A stretch of 64,000 nt of DNA from a virus. The stretch is taken from the IMG/VR virus record IMGVR_UViG_3300020061_000004, positions 59,281 through 123,280 of that record; one strand, written 5' to 3'. Below the pieces are notes generated by a model that was not told where the DNA came from, made no database searches, and saw only the letters and a program-made list of their open reading frames with translations. Position numbers and translations under genes: made by a program. Below are positions 2,861-24,724 of the stretch, in pieces; position 1 is the stretch's first letter, and each line of letters begins with the position of its first letter.

Positions 2861-2861
2861 A

Positions 2862-3647
2862 TTATACAGTTGTTATTGTCTTAACGATTCCGTTTGCCTG
2901 AATCTTAAGAAGGTTTGAAGTGGTATTAAACCAATACTGTCCATCAAGAATTCCTGTAGGATCAGTAGCTAAATTACCAAGATATCCAATTACACCACAA
3001 GCAAGAGCAGCAAGACTTACCGAGTTACCACCTACAATAGATAATGTCTTAGTAGTATTATCAAGTGAAAGTGTCTGAGGAGCAGAAAATATACCATCAG
3101 ATAAAATAGAAGCTCTATTATTAGCTGTAGCTGATATCTTCACCACCCCAGTGATAGTATGGTTCTGAGTACCTGAAACAGTAAAATCAATAGATGTACT
3201 ATCTATAGGAGTAATAGGAATTGTTGCAGCGGCAGTTGCAGCAGCTATAGCAGCACTCTGTGTAGCAAATTCAGTATCAACTGATTGTGCAAACTGTTGT
3301 AGAGTATTTATAGTAAATGGAACAGCTCTAAGAAAGGGAAGAGTGTAGTTTGGTACATTCATTACCTGTCCAATAGGTACTGCAACAGTATCCATAAATA
3401 ACTGAAGAGTAGCTCCATTATTTAAGCCAATAGGTGTAAGATTATTAATTATATCATTATTCTTATGATAGATGACACAATTAGAATCTAACTGAATTGG
3501 GCAACCAGTATTATTACACGTACATACAGGCTGACCACATCCACATCCGCCATATTGCCAACCAGAAGGAGCTATACGAGGATATTGAGGACCAAATGGA
3601 ACAGCATCACTACCACATCCACAACCAGAATAAAGAGGGTTAGGCAT
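2862..3647 (-). CDS. Cys-rich putative virion structural protein
   Basis: Shares the DSxCVIYH motif and the TIPITPIDS/TPIIPLDT segment with the neighbouring fibre gene. Confidence 0.55.
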   Translation of the reverse strand: MPNPLYSGCGCGSDAVPFGPQYPRIAPSGWQYGGCGCGQPVCTCNNTGCPIQLDSNCVIYHKNNDIINNLTPIGLNNGATLQLFMDTVAVPIGQVMNVPNYTLPFLRAVPFTINTLQQFAQSVDTEFATQSAAIAAATAAATIPITPIDSTSIDFTVSGTQNHTITGVVKISATANNRASILSDGIFSAPQTLSLDNTTKTLSIVGGNSVSLAALACGVIGYLGNLATDPTGILDGQYWFNTTSNLLKIQANGIVKTITTV

Positions 3648-3658
3648 TTTATTTTAAT

Positions 3659-4117
3659 TTATATTCCTAAGAATGTTTTAATTGTACAAATTTCACTTCT
3701 AAATAAGTTTAGAATAGAAATGAGTGAGTATGTATTAGTTCCAACTTGACAAGGTGCAGCTGAGGCTGAAAGACATTGTAAGTCTATTGTTAGAAGCTGT
3801 GTAGCAATATTCCAAGCATTTACAGTTGATGTTAATGCAGTGAGAGCAGCATCCAGTCCACATATCTTATCTGTGTGAATCTGAAATAATCCCTTTACAT
3901 CTACATCAATAGGAACAGTTGTTAGACACTGGTTATTAAGATTAGTAACATTAATAGCCGTCTGAATATTTAGAATAGCCTGTGATATTAGATCAACAAT
4001 GTCATTGACATTAGCATCACAGTCGGGTTGTTGTTCTGTTGTAAGAAATACTAAATCCTTTCCTGTGTAAGGAACACATTCAGAAGGAATTATATTACCA
4101 CATGAATATCTTCTCAT
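3659..4117 (-). CDS. Cys-rich putative virion protein
   Basis: 152-aa ORF in the structural operon; SECVPY resembles the CVIY motif of its neighbours. Confidence 0.5.
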   Translation of the reverse strand: MRRYSCGNIIPSECVPYTGKDLVFLTTEQQPDCDANVNDIVDLISQAILNIQTAINVTNLNNQCLTTVPIDVDVKGLFQIHTDKICGLDAALTALTSTVNAWNIATQLLTIDLQCLSASAAPCQVGTNTYSLISILNLFRSEICTIKTFLGI

Positions 4118-14592: not shown

Positions 14593-16665
14593 TTACCTGG
14601 ATTGTTTATTATGCTTGAAGGTGAATGTACTCTGTACCTTTCCAAATCCTTGTCCTATCCTTACAAAGGGTGAAGCAAGCATTGGATCATGTACCTTCTT
14701 AGGCATTAGAGGATCAAAGGGTTGTTCAGCTATATTACTAACAGGATAGTATTTATCCAGATGCTTAGCAAATGCTAAAGCATGCCTGAAGGCCACTATA
14801 CGGTCATAGTTACCATCCTTTGGATCATACTTGATAATCTCCATTAGAAGTACAGGGTCCAGAATTCGGGTTATACCAAGCTTGTAGATGGGTTCTCTTG
14901 TAACAGGATGTGTTCCTATCTGTATCTGTTCCTTACAATATTCTATCATTAAGGACATACAGTAGTTAATATTAGCTACTGTTGGTGATAAGCCATATAC
15001 TTTACCACCTTGGTTAGCTCTAGTCTTAGGATTTATTTCTCTTGCAATATTAAATCCCTGTCCAAGCATATGTCCTTTATTCTTACGCTCAAAATACTGG
15101 ATGAATGTACCTGCTGCATTTTCTGGAAAGCATGTAGCATTATAATAATCCATTAACATCTCAACATCTTCATGCCAAGAATCCATTCTCTCAGGACGAG
15201 ATGCCAAAGATGCCACCACCATATTCTGATAGGTTTCACCAGATACATCTGTCATTCTCTTATAGATGAAGAGTGTCCCTAGAGAGTCAGACCAATCTGA
15301 TATATCATTATTATACGGGTCGGCTCCAGCTACATAAAGCCCCATAGGAGCATTTGTAATAGGTTCTTCCCATATTACTATAGGGCAATCTGTGCCTAAG
15401 TTTCCTTTTGTTGGAAACTCTGAGATTGGTAGATCAGTAGGATCAGCATTTTTCTGAATTACCCTACCATTAGAATCTCTATATAGACGTACATAACGTC
15501 CCTTAATTTGATTAGTTTGTAAGTATTCCAGATGCTGTCTAGCTGCTTCCAAAGGGAACGGATTACTACTACCTGATAGAAAGCATTCCTCTGGTGTCAG
15601 AGGATGATACATTACAGCCTTTAAATACTCTTGTTTATCTGGGTCTTTAGACTTGATGAGTCTTTCTTCTTCTATCTTTAAGCGAGCTTTCTCTTTATCT
15701 GATACCTTAATAGGAATTGTCTTAGCTTCTAATCCAATTCCTGTAAATCCTTTTGATAAGAGATAGTCATATAGATTGGAATCAGTCTTACAATCCATTC
15801 GGTAAAGACCAGACATGAATAAGCCAGTCTTCTTTCCTGTCTCTTCATTTACTACTTCTTGGAAGTTATTAGCTGTGGGATGTTCAAATACACGTTTAGC
15901 ATCATTACCTTTCTCAAAACTACCACCAGTACCCACTAGGATTGGAACACAACGCCAGCCGTATGGTGATAGGAACGCTGGTTTATGTGCTTCAAATACT
16001 GGTGAAAATAGATATTTACCAATTTCATCATATACTGCTGCCTTTGCTGTTGTACCAGCCGCGGCTTCTGTATTTGTACCTTCTTCTGCATTACGAATCA
16101 TTATATAACTCCACACATGGTCTTCATTATTCTTGTCTTTAAAACCAAGACGTAATGTTGGCTTCCTCCAGTCTTTATCTAGTTTAGGGATAGCCAATCC
16201 TTGCCACATATGTTTCCATCCAAAATCAATCTTCTCTGTAAGAAGCTTCATGTCTGCTCCATTACCCGCTACAAGTACACTCTGTGAATTCTCATATAAT
16301 ATAGCTGTCATACCAATATGAGAAGCTTCCCATTCTGATTTACCTCCCTGACGTAATCCCACTTCTATATATCCCTTCTGAGCTACACGAGCTTTCTCAA
16401 AATACTCAGCACGTTCCCATTCATTATCTCTAAGATCAGGTAGGGATGGTGTACGTACAATGTTTCCCCACTTATCCTTCTTATCCACAATAATATGCCA
16501 GTGATTCAAATGCCCATATAAAATTCCAGGAATATGAACACCACCAATAGTAATACCCCCCATGCACTTTTCAATTTCCCACTCTACAAGAGAAGTGAAA
16601 TCATCAGTACCGGGAGGTGGCAAAGTTTTTATATTTCTAAAAAACTCAGTTGTTTTAATCTGCAT
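14593..16665 (-). CDS. terL: Terminase large subunit
   Basis: RQGGKS Walker A, VYDEIG Walker B, GTGG coupling motif, nuclease motifs AGADPY and GNYDRI. Confidence 0.9.
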   Translation of the reverse strand: MQIKTTEFFRNIKTLPPPGTDDFTSLVEWEIEKCMGGITIGGVHIPGILYGHLNHWHIIVDKKDKWGNIVRTPSLPDLRDNEWERAEYFEKARVAQKGYIEVGLRQGGKSEWEASHIGMTAILYENSQSVLVAGNGADMKLLTEKIDFGWKHMWQGLAIPKLDKDWRKPTLRLGFKDKNNEDHVWSYIMIRNAEEGTNTEAAAGTTAKAAVYDEIGKYLFSPVFEAHKPAFLSPYGWRCVPILVGTGGSFEKGNDAKRVFEHPTANNFQEVVNEETGKKTGLFMSGLYRMDCKTDSNLYDYLLSKGFTGIGLEAKTIPIKVSDKEKARLKIEEERLIKSKDPDKQEYLKAVMYHPLTPEECFLSGSSNPFPLEAARQHLEYLQTNQIKGRYVRLYRDSNGRVIQKNADPTDLPISEFPTKGNLGTDCPIVIWEEPITNAPMGLYVAGADPYNNDISDWSDSLGTLFIYKRMTDVSGETYQNMVVASLASRPERMDSWHEDVEMLMDYYNATCFPENAAGTFIQYFERKNKGHMLGQGFNIAREINPKTRANQGGKVYGLSPTVANINYCMSLMIEYCKEQIQIGTHPVTREPIYKLGITRILDPVLLMEIIKYDPKDGNYDRIVAFRHALAFAKHLDKYYPVSNIAEQPFDPLMPKKVHDPMLASPFVRIGQGFGKVQSTFTFKHNKQSR

Positions 16666-16978
16666 CTCTCTGCATTCTATGAGGAATATTAGTATTCCCT
16701 TTTGCTTCAGCCTTAGTTGCTTCTTTTTCTCTTAATTTATCTATCACTTCCAAAAGAAGAAGATAGTTCTTCATGGTATCTTGTACAGATTTAATCTGTT
16801 GTTCAATAGAAGCCACTACTGTACGCATCATACCACCATTCTTCGTCTCCTTATAGTCCATCCTATCTGTTAGTTGATCTATAGGATTGATGTCAATGTA
16901 ATTACGCCATTTCTTTAATTGCTCTTCAGCCCAATCTAAATCTGATGTTATGTAACTATTAACTTTCTTTGCTGCCAT
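16655..16978 (-). CDS. Hypothetical protein, possible terminase small subunit
   Basis: Helical 107-aa ORF overlapping the terL start. Confidence 0.4.
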   Translation of the reverse strand: MAAKKVNSYITSDLDWAEEQLKKWRNYIDINPIDQLTDRMDYKETKNGGMMRTVVASIEQQIKSVQDTMKNYLLLLEVIDKLREKEATKAEAKGNTNIPHRMQRDAD

Positions 16979-17444
16979 CTATTTGGTTTTGAGCACTAGG
17001 TTGGATTTGAACCAACGGTTGTACGGTTTTGCAGACCGGTGCCTTGGACCCCTCAGCCACTAGTGCAGGTTTCTGTGCGAAATCTAAATACTTTGATATT
17101 AAAATCTTATTCTTAAGAACGTAATCAAATATCTTCTCCACTATATATCCTGTTATATATGCTCTTGTCTCACCTAGTTTCTCTACTTCAGTCTTCTCGA
17201 TGATGTAGTCTACAATGTGGGACACTTCATGTACAATGCAGTTGGGAGTGAGTCCATGTAACTGATAGAAGATGAAGTATTTATGATCAGGTGTATCTAG
17301 TGATAAACCATAATAGCCTCCTTCTGCAAGAGGCTCCATACCATACTTCTTAAGATATCTTGGTACTATCTTTTCAATCTCTTCATCTATAATAATAGTG
17401 AGGTTGAACTCAAAGATAGGTATCTTTATAGTTGTCTTATACAT
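16959..17444 (-). CDS. Putative zincin-like metalloprotein
   Basis: HEVSH (HExxH) motif followed by ETRAY. Confidence 0.5.
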   Translation of the reverse strand: MYKTTIKIPIFEFNLTIIIDEEIEKIVPRYLKKYGMEPLAEGGYYGLSLDTPDHKYFIFYQLHGLTPNCIVHEVSHIVDYIIEKTEVEKLGETRAYITGYIVEKIFDYVLKNKILISKYLDFAQKPALVAEGSKAPVCKTVQPLVQIQPSAQNQIDGSKES

Positions 17445-17454
17445 AGAAGATATT

Positions 17455-17529
17455 TGGAAGCGGGAGCGGGATTTGAACCCGCGACCTTTGAGTTATGAGC
17501 CCAACGAGCTACCTCTGCTCTACCCCGCT
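17455..17529 (-). tRNA. tRNA-Met(CAT), initiator-like
   Basis: AGCGGGGTAGAGCAGAGGTAGCTCGTTGGGCTCATAACTCAAAGGTCGCGGGTTCAAATCCCGCTCCCGCTTCCA; body resembles fMet tRNA, CCA encoded. Confidence 0.9.
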
Positions 17530-17535
17530 ATATTA

Positions 17536-17763
17536 TTAATCTTCTATTTGTGTTGCCTTATCAGCTAGATCAGTCTCAAGTTCATCACGATAGTTTTCAA
17601 ACTTCTTGAGAAGTTCTTCATCACTCCAGTTATAATTACCTGTTTGGGGGCGCATCACATGCACAATATGCTGTGAGATACTATACTGGGGAAACAACTC
17701 TACTATCTCTACGAAATGATGAAAAATCTGTTGCTTGATCTGAGTTTTTTGTTTATTGCTCAT
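17536..17763 (-). CDS. Hypothetical protein
   Basis: 75-aa ORF coupled to the upstream gene. Confidence 0.6.
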   Translation of the reverse strand: MSNKQKTQIKQQIFHHFVEIVELFPQYSISQHIVHVMRPQTGNYNWSDEELLKKFENYRDELETDLADKATQIED

Positions 17764-18181
17764 TGGTTTTTGTTTTGTATGCTGTCCATTTAAGTTCCAT
17801 ATTGATGTTGTTATTCTGATTAAAGGCTAACAACTCTTTATCCTTGCAAGTACAATTTGATAAGTTATCAAAATTGCAACAATCAATTCCACAATTTGCT
17901 TCTAGTGAAGCTGTCTTTCTAGTGATTGTACATCCACACATAATACAATGTTCATCAAATCTATCTGTCTTATATCCAGTAGATACTGCATTTGAACTAT
18001 TGAATGGACACGTTGCACATATAAATCTTCTTCTTGCTATTTCTGCTTGTTCATCTTCAGGAAGGATATCATATTGCAATTTCACTTGATTCACTATCCC
18101 CTCCACTATCAAGTCTGCATTCTGTACTACTGTCGGCAGTAGTTTTACATATTCTATTAGTCCTTTTAGCATAAGCTTCAT
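17753..18181 (-). CDS. Cys-rich putative Zn-binding protein
   Basis: ICATCPF, HCIMCGC and further Cys clusters. Confidence 0.6.
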   Translation of the reverse strand: MKLMLKGLIEYVKLLPTVVQNADLIVEGIVNQVKLQYDILPEDEQAEIARRRFICATCPFNSSNAVSTGYKTDRFDEHCIMCGCTITRKTASLEANCGIDCCNFDNLSNCTCKDKELLAFNQNNNINMELKWTAYKTKTNEQ

Positions 18182-18512
18182 AATACTGTGTTGCTAATGT
18201 ATTCCTCTGTATTAAGGCTTTTCTAAGTTTGCCATAGTTTACTTCGAGGAGCAGGTCTTTTGTTGATTCTTTATACCTGATAGACTTCTTTATATTCCTA
18301 ATCTTATTAATTGTGGACTTTATAAAGTAGTCTATCTTACGTTTACTTGTTGTTATTGTTCCTAAGTACTTGATACTCACCGATGTAGACTCAAGGCCAC
18401 TTAGTTTTTTCCTTACTTCTTTCCAATAAAAATCATTCACACTATCAACAATCTTCTCTTCTATTCCCATCTCACGGGATACTATCTTGCTGATTACTTG
18501 AATAGTTTTCAT
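18069..18512 (-). CDS. Putative HU/IHF-like DNA-binding protein
   Basis: Basic; helix-turn-helix start then VSIKYLGTI strand as in the IHF-like proteins of crAss-like phages. Confidence 0.5.
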   Translation of the reverse strand: MKTIQVISKIVSREMGIEEKIVDSVNDFYWKEVRKKLSGLESTSVSIKYLGTITTSKRKIDYFIKSTINKIRNIKKSIRYKESTKDLLLEVNYGKLRKALIQRNTLATQYYEAYAKRTNRICKTTADSSTECRLDSGGDSESSEIAI

Positions 18513-18853
18513 TAGCTATTATCTATTTTAATCAGTACACCAATCACAGGATTAACAGGAAAGTCTAAGTCTGCATTAAGTGTGTAGTCTTTAGAATCTA
18601 CAGGACGCACTAACATTCCAAACTTCTTAAGTTTACTCATTGTATTCTTCAGACTATCCTCTGTTTTGAGAATATTTGAAGAAAGAATAAGGTCTTTAGT
18701 TTTTCTATTAATCCTATATACCATGAAATAAGCAAGGACTGTGAGTTCAGTATCAGAAAGTCGTATATTCTTGAGTAAACAAAAGATACCAATTACTTTC
18801 TTTGCCTGTTCCACCTTGCTATTGGTTTTAAGTTTGATTTTTACAAGCTGCAT
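18512..18853 (-). CDS. Hypothetical winged-helix-like protein (start MQLVKI)
   Basis: ORF downstream of a promoter; LKNTMSKLKKFGMLVR pattern. Confidence 0.5.
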   Translation of the reverse strand: MQLVKIKLKTNSKVEQAKKVIGIFCLLKNIRLSDTELTVLAYFMVYRINRKTKDLILSSNILKTEDSLKNTMSKLKKFGMLVRPVDSKDYTLNADLDFPVNPVIGVLIKIDNS

Positions 18854-18910
18854 TTCCTTAATTTCTACACAAAGATAAGTAATTGATTTCAATTAACCAA
18901 ATCTTTTTCA

Positions 18911-19396
18911 CTAATTATGATTATTTGCTGTAATTAAGTCTCTATATCTCTCATTTACAATCTTAGCCTGAGCTGATGAAGGTATTCTTCCTGATTCTAA
19001 TAGGGAAAGGATACTTCTGAAGTAAGGAGCAGGGGATATTTGTAATATCTTCTTACAACGCTTCTTATATTCCTCTATAACTCCTTGTATTCTAGTGGTA
19101 TCCTTTGATTTATTCTTCTTTACTCTTCTGGTTGATGAAGGTTTCTTCATGAAAGAAGCTATTGTTCTTTTCTCATGTGCTTTTGAATGACAATCTGCAC
19201 AAAGAGTAACTAAAGCTTTCAAAGGATATTCCCAAGGACTCTTATCTTTGATGTAATAGAGATGATGAACATGCAACATACAATTTGTAGCCTTACAATT
19301 CCTGCATGTATACTTATCACGGTTTAAAACCTGAACCCTAACTACATCAACCCAGCGTGTATCAAGTAATAATATTTTATATTCTTCTTTTGTCAT
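18911..19396 (-). CDS. HNH endonuclease (start probably MTKEEY)
   Basis: RDKYTCRNC...LHVHH...LVTLCADCH. Confidence 0.8.
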   Translation of the reverse strand: MTKEEYKILLLDTRWVDVVRVQVLNRDKYTCRNCKATNCMLHVHHLYYIKDKSPWEYPLKALVTLCADCHSKAHEKRTIASFMKKPSSTRRVKKNKSKDTTRIQGVIEEYKKRCKKILQISPAPYFRSILSLLESGRIPSSAQAKIVNERYRDLITANNHN

Positions 19397-19476
19397 AATA
19401 TTCTCTGTTGAGTATGCAATACTACGGAAAATTATTGACATTATGCCACTTTTTTCAATATTTATTTTTATATAAT

Positions 19477-19504
19477 ATAAAAACCCCTCACTTGGAGGGG
19501 CTTG
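19477..19504 (-). terminator. Intrinsic terminator
   Basis: AAGCCCCTC-CAAGT-GAGGGGTTTT. Confidence 0.7.
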
Positions 19505-19524
19505 CAACAAAAGAAGGTAGCAGA

Positions 19525-19671
19525 TTAGACTTTTTTAGCATCTGCTTCGACAGTAGAAGCTACTTCTTCAACCTTTTCAATAATCGGCTCGATCTTTTCC
19601 TTGTTATTACGGTAAATTAATATACCTGCAATGAACAAACCAAGAGATACAATAGCAACGAGTGGAACCAT
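19525..19671 (-). CDS. Small single-pass membrane protein (48 aa, not in the ORF track)
   Basis: MVPLVAIVSLGLFIAGILIYRNNKEKIEPIIEKVEEVASTVEADAKKV, with its own promoter (about 19690-19721) and terminator. Confidence 0.65.
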   Translation of the reverse strand: MVPLVAIVSLGLFIAGILIYRNNKEKIEPIIEKVEEVASTVEADAKKV

Positions 19672-19721
19672 ATGTTTCAAATTTAGATACAAAGATAATA
19701 ACTTCTTAGGAAATTACCAAA

Positions 19722-19795
19722 TGGCACGGGAGGCTTGATTCGAACAAACATCAAAGGTTTTGGAGACCTCTATTCTACCATTGAACTACTCCCGT
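19722..19795 (-). tRNA. tRNA-Trp(CCA)
   Basis: Cloverleaf, anticodon loop CTCCAAA, CCA end. Confidence 0.9.
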
Positions 19796-19796
19796 A

Positions 19797-19871
19797 TGGG
19801 GTGAAAGGACGGTAATGATCCGTCTTCTATGCCTTCACAGGGCACCGCATCACCTTAATGCTTCAGACACC
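19797..19871 (-). tRNA. tRNA-His(GTG), atypical acceptor stem
   Basis: Loop CTGTGAA, G-1:C73, CCA end; acceptor GTGTCTG/CTTTCAC has three mismatches. Confidence 0.8.
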
Positions 19872-19880
19872 ATGTATTAT

Positions 19881-19953
19881 GTACCCGATCATGGGAACGA
19901 TCCACATTCTCCTGCTTCAAAGGCAGGCATAATACCTTTATACTACTCGGGTA
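19881..19953 (-). tRNA. tRNA-Gln(TTG)
   Basis: Stem CCTGC/GCAGG, loop CTTTGAA. Confidence 0.8.
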
Positions 19954-19957
19954 TAAG

Positions 19958-20028
19958 TTGGGGAAGATTGAATCGAACAACCACCAAAGGTGTCAGAGAC
20001 CTTTGTACTACCATTATACGATTCCCCA
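19958..20028 (-). tRNA. tRNA-Gln(CTG)
   Basis: Stem AAGGT/ACCTT, loop CTCTGAC, Gln-type body. Confidence 0.85.
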
Positions 20029-20074
20029 AAATGAAGGTTCCTTACTCAATGAAGTATGCCTACAACCCAAAATG

Positions 20075-20147
20075 TGGTACAGGTTAGTTATGATCTAACT
20101 CCTCGGGATTTTCAGTCCCGCGCTTCTACCAAGTTAGCTTCTGTACC
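20075..20147 (-). tRNA. tRNA-Phe(GAA)
   Basis: Stem CGGGA/TCCCG, loop CTGAAAA. Confidence 0.9.
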
Positions 20148-20152
20148 ATAAG

Positions 20153-20226
20153 AGCCCTAGCCGGAACTCGAAGCCGGTCTGTTCCGCATTACAAGTGCGG
20201 CGCTGCACCATATCAGCATCTCGGGC
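20153..20226 (-). tRNA. tRNA-Thr(TGT)
   Basis: Stem CCGCA/TGCGG, loop CTTGTAA. Confidence 0.85.
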
Positions 20227-20275
20227 AGTTGACATTTGATTTTCACATAAAACAAAGTTTCCAAACAAAACATCG

Positions 20276-20376
20276 CTAATGGGGTACGATTCGAACGTAC
20301 ATGCAGAGGTTATTAATTCCCTATATCTGCACCACCGAGAAAAGGAGGCGAGTCTGCCAAGTTCCAACACCCATTA
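20276..20376 (-). ncRNA. Aberrant class II tRNA-like RNA (about 30-nt variable arm, loop TTTTCTC)
   Basis: Perfect acceptor TAATGGG/CCCATTA, T-arm GTACG-TTCGAAT-CGTAC, Leu/Ser-type D region, long TGCAGA...TCTGCA arm. Confidence 0.7.
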
Positions 20377-20381
20377 ATCTG

Positions 20382-20453
20382 CGGGGAAGGTATGGATCGA
20401 ACATACGACCTGAGAGTTAACAGCTCCCTGCTCTACCGCTGAGCTACTTCCCC
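20382..20453 (-). tRNA. tRNA-Asn(GTT)
   Basis: Canonical cloverleaf, loop CTGTTAA. Confidence 0.9.
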
Positions 20454-20510
20454 AAAATAGGGTGTAAGGGTTCTTCCTTACACAGGGTGCGCTTACCCCA
20501 CTTCCTATTG

Positions 20511-20586
20511 CCGGCAATACGGGATTTGAACCCGTGGTCTTCCCGTAGACAGCGGGACAGGGACAACCAGACTCCCCTAAATGCCG
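20511..20586 (-). tRNA. tRNA-Asp(GTC)
   Basis: Stem TCCCG/CGGGA, loop CTGTCTA (pyrimidine at 37), G73. Confidence 0.85.
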
Positions 20587-20594
20587 AATAAAAG

Positions 20595-20665
20595 TCTAGC
20601 TTGTCTGAATCGAACAGCTCTTCATGCTTCCAAGGCACGGGTGCTACCATCACACCCCAAACTAG
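20595..20665 (-). tRNA. tRNA-Pro(TGG)
   Basis: Stem CGTGC/GCATG, loop CTTGGAA; weak T-stem. Confidence 0.75.
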
Positions 20666-20697
20666 AAATAAAAAACCCTCCTTTAAGGGGAGGGCTT
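20666..20697 (-). terminator. Attenuator terminator of tRNA operon A
   Basis: AAGCCCTCC-CCTTAAA-GGAGGGTTTTTTATTT directly ahead of tRNA-Pro. Confidence 0.85.
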
Positions 20698-20721
20698 GTA
20701 TGAACACGCTTGAAAATTTAG

Positions 20722-20802
20722 TTATCGTGATATAATATAGCCTCTCCCAACGATTGTATCGGGTTGAAAATTAAAGGTATTATTATGCCAATTCTGAATC
20801 AT
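20722..20802 (-). CDS. Leader peptide A (26 aa) MIQNWHNNTFNFQPDTIVGRGYIISR
   Basis: Hand translation; codons 3-16 encode only Q, N, W, H, T, F, P, D, matching the downstream tRNAs. Confidence 0.85.
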   Translation of the reverse strand: MIQNWHNNTFNFQPDTIVGRGYIISR

Positions 20803-20806
20803 ACAG

Positions 20807-20838
20807 CAAAGATAAGAAGAATATTTGATATTACCAAA
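20807..20838 (-). promoter_or_regulatory. Bacteroidota-type promoter of tRNA operon A
   Basis: TTTGG...TATCTTTG, ending 4 nt before the leader ATG. Confidence 0.85.
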
Positions 20839-20857
20839 TTTCTTATAAAAATAAATG

Positions 20858-20940
20858 TGGGAGCTGATGGAGTTGAACCACCCGAGTCCTAAGACAGCAG
20901 ATTTACAGTCTGCCCCGCTACCCCTACGGTATAAACTCCC
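20858..20940 (-). tRNA. tRNA-Tyr(GTA)
   Basis: Loop CTGTAAA, long variable arm. Confidence 0.9.
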
Positions 20941-21026
20941 AAATAGCTACCCTCGGTATTTCCGAGACCAGCTTACAATATAGGGTCACTCACTTAAGAG
21001 GCTCACTAGTTTCCTAGTTACTTTAG

Positions 21027-21113
21027 AGGAAGGTGTGGGATTTGAACCCACGGAACTTTTACATCCTCCGGTTTTCAAGACCGGTGCAATCAGCCAGACT
21101 CTGCCAACCTTCC
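21027..21113 (-). tRNA. tRNA-Ser(TGA)
   Basis: Loop CTTGAAA, long variable arm. Confidence 0.9.
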
Positions 21114-21187
21114 TAAAGCTCACCCCGTAGGTGAGCAGCGCAATTAAGGCTTTGCGATGCCATTACAGCCACCCTTTGGGCAGTGTG

Positions 21188-21272
21188 AGGAGAGTAGAAG
21201 ATTCGAACTTCTGGGGCTTTAACACCCAACACTTTAGCAAAGTGTTACGATAAACCTCTCTGACAACTCTCC
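21188..21272 (-). tRNA. tRNA-Ser(GCT)
   Basis: Loop TTGCTAA, long variable arm. Confidence 0.9.
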
Positions 21273-21277
21273 TTATG

Positions 21278-21357
21278 TATCCCTAACATGATTTGAACAT
21301 GCACCCCGAAGGAGCAGATTTTAAGTCTGCCGCGTCTACCAGTTTCGCCATAGAGAT
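21278..21357 (-). tRNA. tRNA-Leu(TAA)
   Basis: Loop CTTAAAA, Leu-type D arm. Confidence 0.9.
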
Positions 21358-21363
21358 AAGTTG

Positions 21364-21448
21364 TAGGTATAGTAAGAGTCGAACTTACACGCCCATTACA
21401 GGCATCAGTTTCTAAGACTGACGTGTCTACCAATTCCACCATATACCC
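21364..21448 (-). tRNA. tRNA-Leu(TAG)
   Basis: Loop CTTAGAA, Leu-type D arm. Confidence 0.9.
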
Positions 21449-21450
21449 AT

Positions 21451-21488
21451 AAAATAAAAACCCCCGCTATCCGAATTAGCAGGGGAGT
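21451..21488 (-). terminator. Attenuator terminator of tRNA operon B
   Basis: ACTCCCCTGCTAATTCGGATAGCGGGGGTTTTTATTTT directly ahead of tRNA-Leu(TAG). Confidence 0.85.
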
Positions 21489-21528
21489 GACGATATTGTC
21501 TTTTACGAACGCTTCTTTATCACATACT

Positions 21529-21591
21529 TTACCCCTTACTATCGAGTGATAGATAACTTAAGGAGAGCAAATATGAGTTTAAATTCTTCAT
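21529..21591 (-). CDS. Leader peptide B (20 aa) MKNLNSYLLSLSYLSLDSKG; an in-frame upstream ATG lies at 21657
   Basis: Hand translation; codons 6-16 encode only Leu, Ser, Tyr, matching the downstream tRNAs. Confidence 0.85.
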   Translation of the reverse strand: MKNLNSYLLSLSYLSLDSKG

Positions 21592-21665
21592 TTTAATTAG
21601 GGGTCTCAGGAAAGATATAGAAACAATCGTGTGTACAATAAATCTATATCTATCCATCAACACAA

Positions 21666-21697
21666 CAAAGGTAATACAAATAATTGATATTACCAAA
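21666..21697 (-). promoter_or_regulatory. Bacteroidota-type promoter of tRNA operon B
   Basis: TTTGG...TACCTTTG. Confidence 0.85.
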
Positions 21698-21705
21698 TTT
21701 AAGTG

Positions 21706-21778
21706 TAGTAATGATGGGAGTTGAACCCACTACCCCGGAGGTATCAGCTCCGTACTCTAACCGTTGAGCTACACTACT
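21706..21778 (-). tRNA. tRNA-Ile(GAT)
   Basis: Stem CGGAG/CTCCG, loop CTGATAC. Confidence 0.9.
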
Positions 21779-21780
21779 AG

Positions 21781-21852
21781 TGGACTGAGATGGAATTGAA
21801 CCATCGACTTGCACATTATGAGTGTGCTGCTCTACCCCTGAGCTATCAGTCC
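21781..21852 (-). tRNA. tRNA(CAT), probably Ile2 (lysidine) rather than elongator Met
   Basis: Loop CTCATAA; GGAC- acceptor like bacterial Ile2; next to tRNA-Ile; the leader contains ATA and no internal ATG. Confidence 0.75.
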
Positions 21853-21859
21853 ATAAAAG

Positions 21860-21931
21860 TACTCTGTGACGGTTACGATCCGTCTTCCACGCTTTGAAGG
21901 AGCGTTATCCTAGCCACTAGACGAACAGAGC
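21860..21931 (-). tRNA. tRNA-Glu(TTC)
   Basis: Glu-type body, stem ACGCT/AGCGT, loop CCTTCAA (C at 33). Confidence 0.8.
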
Positions 21932-21938
21932 ATATATG

Positions 21939-22010
21939 AGCACCAGTGGGTAATCGAAACCCAATCCGCGCATTGGAAGTGCGCTATAATAGCCGTTATA
22001 CGACTGATGC
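21939..22010 (-). tRNA. tRNA-Gly(TCC)
   Basis: Loop CTTCCAA, U73. Confidence 0.9.
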
Positions 22011-22012
22011 AT

Positions 22013-22087
22013 TGGTAGAGATACCAAGAATCAAACTTGGGTCTAGGGATTAGAAGGCCCTCGTTCTATTCATTGAACTACATCTCT
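22013..22087 (-). tRNA. tRNA-Arg(TCT)
   Basis: Loop CTTCTAA, CCA end. Confidence 0.9.
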
Positions 22088-22088
22088 A

Positions 22089-22164
22089 TGGAGGACACAG
22101 AAAGAGTCAAACTTTCGTTCCCTGCTTCGTAGGCAGGAGTTCTATTCAGCTGAACTATGCGTCC
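22089..22164 (-). tRNA. tRNA-Arg(ACG)
   Basis: Loop CTACGAA, CCA end. Confidence 0.9.
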
Positions 22165-22235
22165 TAATACTGGGCCAGAGTATACAGGTTACTGTCCCTC
22201 TATGAATTTCACATAGTTACCCCAGTAGAATACTG

Positions 22236-22308
22236 TCTCCCCGTTCGGAATCGAACCGAACCCCACGGTTTAAAAGACCGTTGCCTACAACCAGTTTGCT
22301 ACAAGGAG
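22236..22308 (-). tRNA. tRNA-Lys(TTT)
   Basis: Stem ACGGT/ACCGT, loop CTTTTAA. Confidence 0.85.
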
Positions 22309-22313
22309 TTTGT

Positions 22314-22353
22314 AAAAACAAAAACCCGAAGCTGCTAGTTGCGGCTCCGGGCT
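22314..22353 (-). terminator. Attenuator terminator of tRNA operon C
   Basis: AGCCCGGAGCCGC-AACTA-GCAGCTTCGGGTTTTTGTTTTT directly ahead of tRNA-Lys. Confidence 0.85.
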
Positions 22354-22375
22354 CTGTTAAAAGAAATTGTTAGTA

Positions 22376-22477
22376 TTATCCTAAATCAATATCTTGTAGA
22401 CATATAGCTCCGGAGCCAGGTTTTCTTCCTGCCTCGCGAATAATTTCTATGCCACCGATATTGATAACTAAATTCAT
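22376..22477 (-). CDS. Leader peptide C (33 aa) MNLVINIGGIEIIREAGRKPGSGAICLQDIDLG
   Basis: Hand translation; 12 of codons 7-19 encode I, G, E, R, K, matching the downstream tRNAs. Confidence 0.85.
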   Translation of the reverse strand: MNLVINIGGIEIIREAGRKPGSGAICLQDIDLG

Positions 22478-22481
22478 AATG

Positions 22482-22513
22482 CAAAGATATGTTAAATATT
22501 TGAAACTACCAAA
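22482..22513 (-). promoter_or_regulatory. Bacteroidota-type promoter of tRNA operon C
   Basis: TTTGG...TATCTTTG, ending 4 nt before the leader ATG. Confidence 0.85.
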
Positions 22514-22746
22514 TCTTGTTTTAAAAAGGCTATTACTTCTTTAAGTTCTTGTTCAGGAGTAGATGGCCTTATCATAAATTCTCTTTCCCGATTTGTTACC
22601 ATATATCCAAAAACATTTGAGGATGCTAGGAAACCCTTTGAAATATTAAGAAATGATGGAAGGTGTGTTCCAGACATAAATCCATAATCTCCTCTACTAT
22701 GAGAGAGTCCTGTCTCCTTATCTATATAAGCTAATACAGCATTCAT
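22492..22746 (-). CDS. Hypothetical protein
   Basis: 84-aa ORF. Confidence 0.55.
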   Translation of the reverse strand: MNAVLAYIDKETGLSHSRGDYGFMSGTHLPSFLNISKGFLASSNVFGYMVTNREREFMIRPSTPEQELKEVIAFLKQDLVVSNI

Positions 22747-23030
22747 TATACAAAGATTAAACTACACAATGCTTTTGATATCCATACAATCTCACCTTTA
22801 ACTGGTTCTTGATCAATCTCAATAGATATATGAGTGCCATCAATCCCTGCAAACTCTCCATTATCTAAGGGTGTCATATTCCAATGGCTTATCTCACGTT
22901 TATCATTGAGGATGGTATAATAGCTACCATCCTCTTTTATTAATCTTATGCCGGGACAGAGATATTTCTTTGGAATATATCTATCCCTCCAATCTCCCTG
23001 TATCATCAGAGTCACTCGTGTGGGTCTCAT
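22746..23030 (-). CDS. Hypothetical protein
   Basis: 94-aa ORF, TAATG coupling. Confidence 0.55.
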   Translation of the reverse strand: MRPTRVTLMIQGDWRDRYIPKKYLCPGIRLIKEDGSYYTILNDKREISHWNMTPLDNGEFAGIDGTHISIEIDQEPVKGEIVWISKALCSLIFV

Positions 23031-23054
23031 AACTAAAAAAAATTCGTTCGTACG

Positions 23055-23456
23055 TTAACTCAAATTATCACTATCCATACCAAGCCCGAAATCATCAATC
23101 GAATCTGGTTTGATGATAGTGTCATTAGACGCGCCTTCTCCAGATTTTTCTGTTATGAATCCGTGTATACTATACCCTGTAGCGGCTGTATAGATACGCT
23201 GAAACTCACTATAAGGCAATGCCACTACAAAACTATCCCCGTCCTTAAAACGCACCGTTGTCGATTTTTTATCCTGGCTACGATTGAATCGAGAGATATC
23301 ATTGATATCAAACGTCATAGGAGCATAGTCATAAAAGAACTCTGGTTGGAAGTTGTTCTGCTCTTCACCACTCAGAAGCTTCTTTAGTTGAAGTTCCTGA
23401 TCGTCCTCTTTCTTAACACGCATCTCTGTCCATCTCACCTGCATTTCTACTATCAT
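23055..23456 (-). CDS. Hypothetical protein
   Basis: 133-aa ORF. Confidence 0.6.
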   Translation of the reverse strand: MIVEMQVRWTEMRVKKEDDQELQLKKLLSGEEQNNFQPEFFYDYAPMTFDINDISRFNRSQDKKSTTVRFKDGDSFVVALPYSEFQRIYTAATGYSIHGFITEKSGEGASNDTIIKPDSIDDFGLGMDSDNLS

Positions 23457-23457
23457 A

Positions 23458-23673
23458 TTAATATACTTCTCCTATAAGTTTGTTTATTTTCTTCCTATCA
23501 CCATTTGTTTTAGTTACAATCTCCACTAAGGTTTCAAACCTGGAGCTTCTCAATACTAGAGGGGAAGTTCTATTAGAGAATAACAAGGGATAATGATCCC
23601 TTTCTACGGCTGCCCATTCCATCTTATAGGCATTGTAGTTAAATACCCAATTGTGTAAATTACTTAGTTCCAT
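23458..23673 (-). CDS. Hypothetical protein
   Basis: 71-aa ORF. Confidence 0.55.
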   Translation of the reverse strand: MELSNLHNWVFNYNAYKMEWAAVERDHYPLLFSNRTSPLVLRSSRFETLVEIVTKTNGDRKKINKLIGEVY

Positions 23674-23968
23674 TTATATCTACTTTTGTTGTTGCTTTTA
23701 AATTCTCTACTGTCTTTATATCTGCATCAGCTAACTCAGGGTGTTCTCGTAATGCTTTCTGCATTGCTTCTTCCCATTGTGCTGCTGTAAAGTTAACTCT
23801 TTTTTGTTTAGTAAACAAATATTTTTGCTTAATTTTCATGTTTATATTTTTCGTTTAAATTATCTACAAACTCCTTTAATATCTTCTTAGGTATTTTAGG
23901 CCCATATTTTATATATAGTGCCCCCATACCTTCTAGCCATTCTGCTGTTAGTTTGGCTTCTTCAATAC

Positions 23969-24724
23969 TTAGCCAAGATGTTTCATCCATTTTACTTCTT
24001 TTATAATTTCCCTCCAGCGTGTAGCTAAGAGGTTTGAATAAATACTATCATCAAGTCCATAGTTCCCAAGAGACCATCCATCATTACACTCTACCAATAC
24101 TGTCTCTCCTGTAGATAGAACACCAACATCCAGACTATATCCAGAAGGAGCTTCTGTATAAGCTGCTATCATCTTCATCACCTTCTCCTTATTGGGAGCT
24201 ATAAAAGGATCACCAAGATAGTGCTTCATTCCCTTTAATACTCCATTGATGATATAGCATCTATATTCAGAAACGAAGTCTACCACTTCACTATAGAATA
24301 TCTTTGTATCCTGAGGAATCTTACTGAAGTAAATAAGAGCATCTGTTGGTGTTTTAACTACTCCTGCTATAAACTCCTTAGCTTTTCCATCTGGCTTTAC
24401 AAATAGAGGCCATTTACGCTGCTCACTATACCAAGTAATATCCTCCATTTTACCATTTCCTACTTCTCTTTTAAGGAACTCTTCTTTCCATAATTGGTAG
24501 GGAACATTAATAGCCTGCTTTGGTGGTAGTCCTATCTTCTCGAAATACTTATTGGTGGTTTCTATATAAGCTACAAGAATTACCCAAGGAGCTACAGGTA
24601 CTTCATCAATATCCTCAAAGAATACTATATTAGCTTGCTTCCCTTTAAACCCCATATAGGCAGATACCATCCAGTCTGCGATTGGGAAGTTATTAAGACT
24701 CTCTATGTATATTTTATAATCCAT
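23969..24724 (-). CDS. ATP-grasp domain protein (DUF4343/R2K-like)
   Basis: PLFVKP, SEYRCYI, YSLDVG, LVECNDGWSLG motifs. Confidence 0.75.
   Translation of the reverse strand: MDYKIYIESLNNFPIADWMVSAYMGFKGKQANIVFFEDIDEVPVAPWVILVAYIETTNKYFEKIGLPPKQAINVPYQLWKEEFLKREVGNGKMEDITWYSEQRKWPLFVKPDGKAKEFIAGVVKTPTDALIYFSKIPQDTKIFYSEVVDFVSEYRCYIINGVLKGMKHYLGDPFIAPNKEKVMKMIAAYTEAPSGYSLDVGVLSTGETVLVECNDGWSLGNYGLDDSIYSNLLATRWREIIKEVKWMKHLG

What the first reader, a model, noticed from the sequence alone, without database searches (positions are those of the whole stretch)
22314..22513. Attenuator C: leader codons match the anticodons one by one, including ATA, CGC, AGA, GGA, AAA
Codons 7-19 are ATC GGT GGC ATA GAA ATT ATT CGC GAG GCA GGA AGA AAA. 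They cover Ile(GAT), the CAT tRNA if it is Ile2, Glu(TTC), Arg(ACG), Gly(TCC), Arg(TCT) and Lys(TTT). GGCTCCGGAGCT (22406-22417) pairs with terminator arm AGCCCGGAGCC (8 bp perfect plus 3 bp after a bulged A). tRNA-Lys(UUU), a known PrrC and PARIS target, is the first gene after the terminator.
Basis: partly seen in the sequence, partly recalled or inferred. Interest (0 to 1): 0.85.

Follow-up and report, generated by a model that had tools for sequence, protein, structure and literature searches.

The report
Leader-peptide attenuator of phage tRNA genes
A tiny test gene, written mostly in the amino acids carried by the seven tRNA genes behind it and wired to a switchable transcription stop, probably lets this phage make those tRNAs only when ribosomes run short of them, a trp-operon-style control that I could not find in print for tRNA genes.

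Summary
On the minus strand, 22513-22314 holds a Bacteroidota-type promoter, a 33-codon ORF starting 4 nt after the -7 box, and an intrinsic terminator ending 5 nt before tRNA-Lys. A leader segment can pair with the terminator's 5' arm.

This is one of three units of the same build in the window. Each leader is rich in the amino acids of its own tRNA block. In relatives with reshuffled tRNA blocks, the leaders follow the local block: 0 of 50000 permutations over 18 units reach the observed match.

A blind test worked. From the leader of a newly found fourth C-type unit I predicted ten amino acids. The DNA fetched afterwards held tRNA genes for exactly those ten.

The antiterminator arm is specific to its own terminator, shows a compensatory change, and is conserved as RNA across two reading frames. 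The cultured Cellulophaga phage phi38:1 has the same design.

Three points are not supported:
- Codon-level (isoacceptor) matching is no better than gene codon usage.
- The Lys codon is the worst-placed sensor codon.
- The PrrC/PARIS link is untested.

No RNA data exist. This scan noted the same class earlier on other DNA (Caulobacter, lake and giant phages). My literature searches found no paper describing it.

The parts
22482..22513 (-). Promoter of unit C: -33 TTTG (22513-22510) and -7 box TATCTTTG (22489-22482).
   Evidence: pattern scan: 14 found against 1.77 expected. The -7 box consensus lies at -12 to -5 of flavobacterial sigma-A promoters (PMC9723704, passage read), so a start at the A of the ATG is inferred.
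22376..22477 (-). Leader ORF of 33 codons plus stop. It is probably leaderless, since the ATG lies 4 nt after the -7 box.
   Evidence: Homologous ORFs lie in L002, L003 and G001.
22421..22465 (-). Sensor codons 5-19: Ile, Gly, Glu, Arg and Lys codons, with one Asn and one Ala.
   Evidence: In the model, a ribosome with its A site at codons 1-17 leaves the antiterminator free.
22428..22440 (-). Region 1 (codons 13-17), which pairs with region 2 in the full-length minimum-energy fold.
   Evidence: structure.
22406..22420 (-). Region 2, the antiterminator arm (core GGCTCCGGAGCT, 22417-22406).
   Evidence: The partner change C-G to A-U in L002/L003 was read.
22314..22358 (-). Intrinsic terminator. 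The 5' arm includes AGCCCGGAGCC (22353-22343), the 3' arm is GCTTCGGG (22332-22325), and the T tract is 22324-22314.
   Evidence: -22.4 kcal/mol for the last 62 nt.
21705..22308 (-). Regulated genes: tRNA-Lys(UUU), Arg(ACG), Arg(UCU), Gly(UCC), Glu(UUC), a CAU tRNA (Ile2 or Met) and Ile(GAU).
21449..21697 (-). Sister unit B: promoter, Leu/Ser/Tyr-rich leader and terminator, followed by tRNAs Leu, Leu, Ser, Ser, Tyr. Its terminator would also end transcripts that read through unit C.
20666..20838 (-). Sister unit A: promoter, leader with 14 consecutive codons from eight amino acids, and terminator. It is followed by tRNAs Pro, Asp, Asn, Thr, Phe, Gln, Gln, His, Trp.

Best explanation
Unit C is a ribosome-mediated (leader-peptide) transcription attenuator that gates seven phage tRNA genes.

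Proposed mechanism:
1. Host RNA polymerase starts at or next to the ATG of a 33-codon leader.
2. The first ribosome reads a run of Ile, Gly, Glu, Arg and Lys codons.
3. If charged tRNA for any of these is short, the ribosome stalls within codons 5-17. The segment at 22417-22406 then stays free and pairs with the 5' arm of the terminator, and the polymerase runs on into the tRNA genes.
4. If decoding is fast, the ribosome passes over or sits beyond that segment while the terminator is being made. The terminator then forms and transcription stops at 22324-22314.

The tRNAs made feed back on their own synthesis, so supply is matched to demand. Units A and B do the same for the other two tRNA blocks.

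Shown: the anatomy, the composition match and its co-variation with tRNA content, the specific alternative pairing, and its conservation.

Inferred: the transcription start, translation of the leader, termination, and the direction of the response.
For: 1. Anatomy. The promoter, the ATG 4 nt after the -7 box, the 33-codon ORF, the hairpin plus T tract, and the 5 nt to tRNA-Lys leave no room for another promoter.

2. Three units of one build lie in the window.
- Own-set residues are 18 of 32, 18 of 41 and 14 of 25.
- The longest runs are 9, 11 and 14.
- The summed runs are 34 for the true assignment, against 6-19 for the five other assignments.
- The top runs of each set in six frames of the 64 kb lie in the leaders.

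3. Relatives fetched by the terminase gene.
- For 18 units from 9 non-redundant loci, 0 of 50000 permutations of leader against tRNA set reach the observed match.
- A reduced set of 9 units, which keeps the mismatching L040, gives 1 of 50000.
- A fully automatic pipeline on 17 loci found 19 units and also gave 0 of 50000.
- Where tRNAs are regrouped, the leaders follow the local grouping. In L010 a Pro/Gln/His/Arg/Leu/Tyr block and an Ala/Gly/Asp/Asn/Trp/Thr/Arg/Phe/Cys block each have a matching leader, the latter with a run of 17. L120 has a run of 12 for Ala/Gln/His/Leu/Pro/Tyr/Cys. L129 has an own-set run of 12, scored against a cluster that excludes a Cys tRNA lying 738 nt beyond. L039 and L119 have runs of 12 without Asn or Asp, whose tRNAs are absent from the block.

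4. Blind test. From the leader of a fourth C-type unit (L166), I predicted tRNAs for Asn, Met, Ile, Val, Asp, Arg, Gly, Ala, Glu and Lys. The 9 kb fetched afterwards held 15 tRNA genes for exactly these ten amino acids between this terminator and the next unit.

5. RNA switch.
- The terminator's 5' arm pairs best with its own leader. Own leader ranks first of 18 in 10 of 18 units, with a mean rank of 1.9. For unit C the energy is -23.5 against a mean of -13.1 kcal/mol for the other leaders.
- The window and G001 have GGCTCCGG with CCGGAGCC. L002 and L003 have GGCTCAGG with CCTGAGCC, and the 3' arm changes as well.
- In G001 the arm sits in another reading frame, so it is conserved as RNA.

6. 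Occupancy model. Antiterminator probability is 0.8-0.9 for A-site codons 1-17 of unit C and 0.12-0.2 from codon 22 to the stop. In all three units the sensor run ends where the probability falls.

7. The L002 and L003 leaders differ in the sensor run mostly by synonymous or within-set changes (read).
Against: - No RNA evidence: no RNA run holds the stretch. Transcription start, translation and termination are all inferred.
- Codon-level matching is at background: 88 of 146 against 79.9 expected.
- The Lys codon is too close to the arm to signal well in the model.
- In the model, untranslated leaders C and A fold the antiterminator (P 0.85-0.88). This differs from trp and makes the default state read-through.
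- Mismatches exist. The L040 leader is of the Pro/Gln/His/Arg/Leu/Ser/Tyr type but is now followed by Pro-like, Val and Gly tRNAs only (own fraction 0.17, run 1). L005 has Tyr codons but no Tyr tRNA was found (0.35, run 4). L058 scores 0.43 with a run of 3.
- Leader C holds one Ala, one Asn and one Val codon whose tRNAs are not in the block.
- Not every cluster is gated in this way. The Asp and Ile-Ile-Ala clusters of L005 and L039 and the Glu singletons lack a terminator. No unit was detected in L111, and I did not inspect it by eye.
- The automatic pipeline missed unit C itself.
- Related units share ancestry, so the 18 units are not independent.
Confidence: 0.8

Rival explanations
1. This is the same attenuator, but its purpose is counter-defence. 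It would switch on replacement tRNAs when a host anticodon nuclease (PrrC-like or PARIS-like) cuts host tRNAs, with tRNA-Lys as the key target.
For: - tRNA-Lys is the first gene after the terminator in all 4 C-type units.
- A Lys codon is the last sensor codon in all four.
- PARIS degrades E. coli tRNA-Lys, and a T5 tRNA-Lys rescues the phage (PMC11464382, passages read).
Against: - No defence gene or nuclease was examined here.
- The Lys codon is the worst-placed sensor in the model.
- The design covers nearly all amino acids in three units, which fits general supply control as well as defence.
- The host is unknown.
Confidence: 0.25
2. The terminator is coupled to translation but has no tRNA specificity. 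Any slowing of translation (ribosome shortage, host shut-off) gives read-through, and the leader's composition is incidental.
For: In the model, leaders C and A read through whenever no ribosome passes codon 17-19 in time.
Against: - Composition follows the local tRNA set across reshuffled clusters (0 of 50000 permutations).
- The blind prediction of ten amino acids held.
Confidence: 0.08
3. The ORF is an ordinary small gene, or chance, with a plain terminator. The tRNAs would be made by constitutive leak-through or from another promoter.
For: - GenBank annotates the phi38:1 counterpart as a hypothetical protein.
- Small ORFs are common between phage tRNA genes, as in T5.
Against: - Only 5 nt separate the T tract from tRNA-Lys.
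- The promoter motif lies upstream of the ORF.
- The arm complementary to the terminator is specific and co-varies.
- The 11 small ORFs of the T5 tRNA region that I read show no leader-like run of the downstream tRNAs' amino acids, so the pattern is not a general by-product of tRNA clusters.
Confidence: 0.04
4. The logic is reversed. A stalled ribosome favours termination and fast decoding favours read-through, which would give positive feedback.
For: A stall at codons 19-21 masks the antiterminator arm.
Against: The sensor run lies almost wholly in the zone where a stall frees the arm. This holds in all three units. The arm lies between the sensor run and the stop codon, as in classical attenuators.
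Confidence: 0.05

Closest known systems
Multivalent leader-peptide attenuators of enterobacterial amino-acid operons: ilvGMEDA (Ile/Val/Leu) and thr (Thr/Ile), and the single-amino-acid trp, his, leu and pheA leaders (recalled; general account in the abstract of PMC1183508, seen in a search listing)
   Same: All have a short ORF right after the promoter, a run of regulatory codons, a terminator with a competing antiterminator, and a stalled ribosome deciding between the two. Several amino acids are sensed by one leader.
   Different: - The genes controlled here are tRNA genes, not enzymes.
- Five to thirteen amino acids are sensed, and they mirror the tRNA block.
- The mRNA is probably leaderless.
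- Leaders C and A are predicted to read through when untranslated.
- No match to any Rfam leader family.
pheST attenuator with the pheM leader in E. coli (recalled, not read here)
   Same: Leader-peptide attenuation controls part of the translation apparatus according to the supply of a charged tRNA.
   Different: That system controls a tRNA synthetase and senses one amino acid. Here the tRNAs themselves are the product and close the feedback loop.
T-box riboswitches (recalled)
   Same: Both sense tRNA status and act through a terminator/antiterminator choice.
   Different: A T-box binds uncharged tRNA directly and needs no ribosome. No T-box match was found in 16000-24000 at E up to 1.
Inducible tRNA array (trn operon) of Anabaena PCC 7120 (PMC8421152, passages read; PMC10272220, abstract read)
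   Same: An extra set of tRNA genes stays silent until translation is impaired.
   Different: Control there is by the repressor TrcR at direct repeats over the -10 box and start site. The words attenuat-, leader peptide and terminator occur 0 times in PMC8421152.
Phage tRNAs as counter-defence: T5 tRNA-Lys against PARIS (PMC11464382, passages read) and the anticodon-loop variants proposal (PMC10264068, abstract in a listing and one search for terms)
   Same: Phage tRNA clusters replace host tRNAs that are lost during infection.
   Different: Those papers do not describe how the phage tRNA genes are regulated. In PMC10264068, 'promoter' and 'terminator' occur 0 times.
Cys-rich small ORFs that respond to cleavage of tRNA-Cys by VapC4 in M. 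tuberculosis (title seen in the reference list of PMC10264068; content recalled; paper not held)
   Same: Loss of one tRNA is read out by ribosomes stalling in a small upstream ORF.
   Different: That is a cellular stress response controlling protein genes, with one amino acid sensed. It is not feedback on tRNA genes.

Membership tests
Ribosome-mediated (leader-peptide) transcription attenuator | Short ORF at the very start of the transcript, just after the promoter | tested here: met
   The ATG at 22477 lies 4 nt after the -7 box, and the ORF has 33 codons. The transcription start itself is inferred.
Ribosome-mediated (leader-peptide) transcription attenuator | Run of regulatory codons tied to what the controlled genes supply | tested here: met
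   18 of 32 residues belong to the block's amino acids, with a run of 9. The match co-varies with tRNA content in relatives. It holds at amino-acid level only.
Ribosome-mediated (leader-peptide) transcription attenuator | Intrinsic terminator between the leader ORF and the controlled genes | tested here: met
   A G+C-rich stem plus TTTTTGTTTTT ends 5 nt before tRNA-Lys. All 18 units have such a hairpin followed by a T-rich tract, which ends a few nt before the first tRNA in the three window units.
Ribosome-mediated (leader-peptide) transcription attenuator | Antiterminator helix that uses the terminator's 5' arm | tested here: met
   Duplex energy is -23.5 kcal/mol, with 0 of 200 shuffles as good and rank 1 of 18 leaders. 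It forms in the truncated transcript. A compensatory change is seen in L002/L003.
Ribosome-mediated (leader-peptide) transcription attenuator | A ribosome stalled at the regulatory codons favours the antiterminator; a ribosome further on favours the terminator | tested here: met
   Tested only in a folding model with the ribosome as a block: P 0.8-0.9 at codons 1-17 and 0.12-0.2 from codon 22 to the stop. Codon 19 (Lys) is marginal.
Ribosome-mediated (leader-peptide) transcription attenuator | Read-through rises in cells short of the charged tRNA | not testable with these tools
   No RNA run holds the stretch. Needs an experiment.
Ribosome-mediated (leader-peptide) transcription attenuator | Controlled genes are amino-acid biosynthesis or synthetase genes, as in the described members | tested here: not met
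   The controlled genes are seven tRNA genes. I therefore file it as a new variant, not a plain member.
Rfam leader families and T-box | Match to a curated covariance model | tested here: not met
   cmscan of 16000-24000 at E up to 1 gave 25 matches: tRNA-type hits plus 4 weak plastid- or virus-element hits. None was a leader or a T-box.
Repressor-controlled inducible tRNA array (Anabaena trn/TrcR type) | Direct repeats over the -10 box and start site, bound by a repressor | not tested
   I did not look for repeats or a TrcR homologue. The architecture found here needs no repressor.

The most novel reading that the evidence does not exclude
Phages of several bacterial phyla gate each block of their tRNA genes with a modular 'supply gauge': a leader peptide that spells out the amino acids of that block. 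This amounts to a demand-driven, self-limiting tRNA economy. It may double as a counter-defence switch that replaces tRNAs cut by host nucleases.

Bacteroidota phages run it on leaderless mRNAs. They also have a second, terminator-free form for tRNA-Glu, in which the leader ORF ends inside the tRNA gene, so that translation competes with tRNA folding or processing.
Probability: 0.3. Interest if true: 0.9.

Novelty: new variant of a known kind. Interest (0 to 1): 0.85.

Why it matters
How phages regulate their tRNA genes is essentially unknown, and why they carry them is still debated (codon compensation or replacement of damaged host tRNAs).

A leader peptide that lists the amino acids of the tRNA block behind it would show that the phage measures decoding speed codon class by codon class and makes tRNAs on demand. 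That would turn the debate into a testable question: which shortage switches on which block?

It would also extend classical attenuation from enzymes to the decoding machinery itself. It would give annotators a rule, since the leader predicts the tRNA set, as the blind test showed. And it would supply compact sensors of tRNA supply for synthetic biology.

The cultured pair Cellulophaga baltica and phage phi38:1 carries the same design, so experiments are within reach.

Tried and rejected
- Expression data: no RNA holder was listed for window 19400-22800. I did not lay reads, because DNA contigs cannot show termination.

- Isoacceptor-level matching: tested and rejected as a special feature.

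- Identity of the CAU tRNA at 21780-21852: an alignment with the Ile(UAU) tRNAs of L005/L039 and with other CAU tRNAs was not decisive. Its place beside Ile(GAU), where relatives have Ile(UAU), is only suggestive.

- Pair counts on alignments of the C-type units: MAFFT put the arms out of register. I ran no count of structure pairs and read the compensatory change directly from the sequences.

- Phage T5 as a possible further case: I read 11 small ORFs of its tRNA region plus the stretch between promoter P14a and tRNA-Tyr. None has a leader-like run. One Cys-rich ORF before tRNA-Cys looks like a zinc-ribbon protein.

- Pattern scan for more C-type units: of 33 stretches, 3 were contigs already held, 1 was new and real (L166), and 29 had no tRNA within 60 nt downstream.

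- Automatic unit finder: it missed unit C of the window, the L002 C unit and several others, and it merged neighbouring sets. I report it only as a check free of hand-picking.

- Literature: searches found no paper on leader-peptide control of tRNA genes. The library lacks most subscription journals, and supplements are closed, so a prior description cannot be excluded.

- Not done: I did not search cellular Bacteroidota genomes for the same design.

Full report
**What is there**

The window comes from a 123-kb virus record. Its tRNA genes lie on the minus strand. ARAGORN finds 22. Rfam adds one at 19800-19870, which a relaxed ARAGORN run reads as His(GUG).

The finding's stretch, read on the minus strand, holds these features:
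- A promoter of the Bacteroidota type at 22513-22482.
- An ATG 4 nt after the -7 box.
- A 33-codon ORF.
- After 25 nt, a G+C-rich hairpin with the tract TTTTTGTTTTT ending at 22314.
- tRNA-Lys from 22308, followed by Arg, Arg, Gly, Glu, a CAU tRNA and Ile.

The promoter pattern occurs 14 times in the window against 1.77 expected, and 0 of 100 shuffles reach 14. In flavobacteria the sigma-A box TAnnTTTG lies at -12 to -5 (PMC9723704, passage read). A 4-nt spacing therefore puts the start at the A of the ATG, which would make the mRNA leaderless. This is an inference.

**More than chance?**

Taken alone, unit C is modest. 18 of 32 residues belong to the block's five amino acids, against a background of 0.32 (P = 0.003). 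Its run of 9 ties for the longest in six frames of the 64 kb.

But the window has three units of the same build:
- Unit B (21697-21449) precedes Leu, Leu, Ser, Ser, Tyr and has a run of 11 Leu/Ser/Tyr residues.
- Unit A (20838-20666) precedes Pro, Asp, Asn, Thr, Phe, Gln, Gln, His, Trp. It has a run of 14 residues drawn from just these eight amino acids, the only run of 12 or more in the window.
- The true leader-to-block assignment gives summed runs of 34. The five wrong assignments give 6-19.

**Relatives**

The terminase gene brought 53 loci from viral contigs and 80 from metagenome contigs. Those that hold tRNA clusters repeat the design.

In L002 and L003 the three units are homologous to the window's. 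Their C blocks also carry Val and Ala tRNAs.

More telling are loci where the tRNAs are grouped differently:
- In L010 one block is Pro, Gln, His, Arg, Leu, Tyr. Another is Ala, Gly, Asp, Asn, Trp, Thr, Arg, Phe, Cys. Each leader follows its own block, the second with a run of 17.
- In L014 the second block also holds Lys, Ile, Val and Met. Its leader has 7 such residues, against 2 in L010.
- L014's first block has two Ser tRNAs, and its leader has 5 Ser against 2 in L010.
- In L039 and L119 a block without Asn and Asp, but with Arg, has a run of 12 with none of the former in it.
- L120 has a run of 12 for Ala, Gln, His, Leu, Pro, Tyr, Cys.
- L129 has an own-set run of 12 when scored against a cluster that excludes a Cys tRNA lying 738 nt beyond.

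Permuting leaders against tRNA sets gave these results:
- 0 of 50000 permutations as good as observed for 18 units.
- 1 of 50000 for a reduced set of 9 units that keeps a mismatching unit.
- 0 of 50000 for 19 units found by a fully automatic rule.

Homologous units are not independent, so the regrouped loci carry the weight.

**A blind test**

A pattern built from the three arms of unit C found one new locus, L166. From its 27-codon leader I predicted tRNA genes for Asn, Met, Ile, Val, Asp, Arg, Gly, Ala, Glu and Lys. I then fetched the downstream DNA.

Between this terminator and the next leader unit lie 15 tRNA genes: Lys, Lys, Val, Arg, Arg, Asn, Met, Met, Gly, Gly, Glu, Asp, Ile, Ile, Ala. 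These are exactly the ten predicted amino acids and no other.

Gaps of 384, 1183 and 304 nt with HNH-like ORFs interrupt the block, so I cannot say it is a single transcript.

**The RNA switch**

- Full-length leaders fold the terminator.
- Transcripts cut before the 3' arm fold the leader segment onto the terminator's 5' arm in units C and A. In unit B this happens only if a ribosome opens a region 1:2 hairpin.
- Across 18 units the 5' arm pairs best with its own leader. Own leader ranks first in 10 of 18, with a mean rank of 1.9. For unit C the energy is -23.5 against a mean of -13.1 kcal/mol, and 0 of 200 shuffles are as good.
- The window and G001 have GGCTCCGG facing CCGGAGCC. L002 and L003 have GGCTCAGG facing CCTGAGCC, and the 3' arm changes to match.
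- In G001 the arm starts at the third base of a codon, not the first. It is therefore kept as RNA, not as peptide.

I modelled the ribosome as a block that RNA cannot pair across:
- In unit C the antiterminator probability is 0.8-0.9 for A-site codons 1-17.
- It falls to 0.49-0.78 at codon 18 and to 0.29-0.56 at codon 19.
- It is 0.12-0.2 from codon 22 to the stop.
- In units A and B the sensor runs likewise end where the probability falls.

This fits negative feedback: slow decoding gives read-through, and fast decoding gives termination.

**What does not fit or is open**

- The match holds for amino acids, not isoacceptors. 88 of 146 codons of four- and six-codon families are strictly cognate, against 79.9 expected from gene codon usage. 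In unit C the count is 5 of 8 against 0.72.
- The Lys codon sits 3 nt before the arm and is the poorest sensor in the model. Yet its place, and tRNA-Lys as the first gene after the terminator, are conserved in all four C-type units. I have no explanation for this.
- Leader C has single Asn, Ala and Val codons without a tRNA in its block.
- L040 keeps a leader for a block that it seems to have lost (own fraction 0.17). L005 has Tyr codons with no Tyr tRNA found. L058 matches poorly.
- Some clusters have no such gate.
- Untranslated leaders C and A are predicted to read through, unlike trp.
- The CAU tRNA is unassigned.
- There is no RNA evidence.

**Known or new**

- Rfam has no match apart from tRNAs and a few chance hits.
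- Six literature searches found no account of leader-peptide control of tRNA genes.
- The nearest in print is the Anabaena trn operon. It is induced by translational stress through the repressor TrcR (PMC8421152, passages read; PMC10272220, abstract read).
- The 11 small ORFs of the T5 tRNA region that I read show no such pattern.
- The notes of this scan report the same class on other DNA: phiCbK-like Caulobacter phages, and lake and giant phages. I treat these as leads, not as evidence.

New points from this window:
- The class occurs in Bacteroidota-type phages with probably leaderless leaders.
- The regrouping test.
- The blind prediction.
- A cultured example, described next.

Cellulophaga phage phi38:1 shares no DNA with the window beyond 68 nt of tRNA-Lys. 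It has two such units:
- The first leader lies inside the annotated gp066. It has a 14-residue run, of which 13 fit its block.
- The second leader is unannotated. It has a 19-residue run, of which 17 fit its block.
- These counts were made by reading the sequence. They include tRNAs found only at a relaxed threshold, plus one Ala-like tRNA that I read by eye.

**Verdict**

Unit C is very probably a ribosome-mediated attenuator of a phage tRNA block, one of three in this genome and a member of a wider, unpublished class.

The defence reading remains a guess.

Noticed in passing
L135 (Cellulophaga phage phi38:1, KC821614.1) 2225-2395 and 3700-3895: A cultured phage with a known host carries two units of the same design. 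The first leader lies inside the annotated 'hypothetical protein' gp066, and the second is unannotated. Several tRNA-like genes behind them (Ala-, Tyr-, Ser-, Trp-, Cys- and Ile(UAU)-like) are not annotated in the record.
   Followed up: partly
L010 5533-5660; L014 2584-2707; L069 3891-4016; L129 62-185; L065 664-784: In five loci, single tRNA-Glu genes are preceded by a promoter and an ORF of 19-26 codons. The ORF has 4-5 Glu among its first 16-18 codons, has no terminator, and ends 14-29 nt inside the tRNA gene. In L014 (by my own reading) the paired Glu codons just before the tRNA can pair with the tRNA's 5' acceptor strand. This may be a gate acting on tRNA folding or processing.
   Followed up: partly
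window 19800-19870 (-): tRNA-His(GUG) was missed by ARAGORN at its default threshold. It was found by Rfam (31.4 bits) and by relaxed ARAGORN. It accounts for the His codon in leader A.
   Followed up: yes
window 20227-20380 (-): A 154-nt gap between tRNA-Asn and tRNA-Thr holds a tRNA-like sequence. It has a good acceptor and T arm, a very long extra arm and a pyrimidine-only anticodon loop. Neither ARAGORN nor Rfam calls it.
   Followed up: no
window 21595-21657 (-): Unit B has about 63 nt between its promoter and the ATG that is homologous to the leader start in L002/L003. This stretch is in frame and folds into a strong 5' hairpin. Which ATG is used is open.
   Followed up: partly
window 19481-19721 (-); L041 and L039 leader upstream regions; L171 (reverse strand) 559-681: A promoter of the same type drives a small hydrophobic ORF (about 37-55 codons), followed in the window by a terminator, next to the tRNA blocks. 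In L039, L041 and G001 a similar small membrane-like ORF sits directly before a leader.
   Followed up: no
L040 6230-6660: The leader is of the Pro/Gln/His/Arg/Leu/Ser/Tyr type but is followed only by a Pro-like tRNA, Val and Gly. This looks like a deletion inside the tRNA block that the leader has not yet followed.
   Followed up: partly
L039 6730-7116; L171 (reverse strand) 980-1361, 1880-3060, 3560-3863; L007 1-505: ORFs, some resembling HNH endonucleases, are inserted between tRNA genes of one block, as in phage T5.
   Followed up: no
L002 4474-4548: The tRNA-Lys(UUU)-like gene in first place after the terminator has a deviant T loop. Neither ARAGORN nor Rfam called it.
   Followed up: partly
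window 21697-21705 and 19721-19722 (-): There is no terminator between the last tRNA of one block and the promoter of the next. The next unit's attenuator would therefore also end, or pass on, transcripts from the block before it.
   Followed up: no
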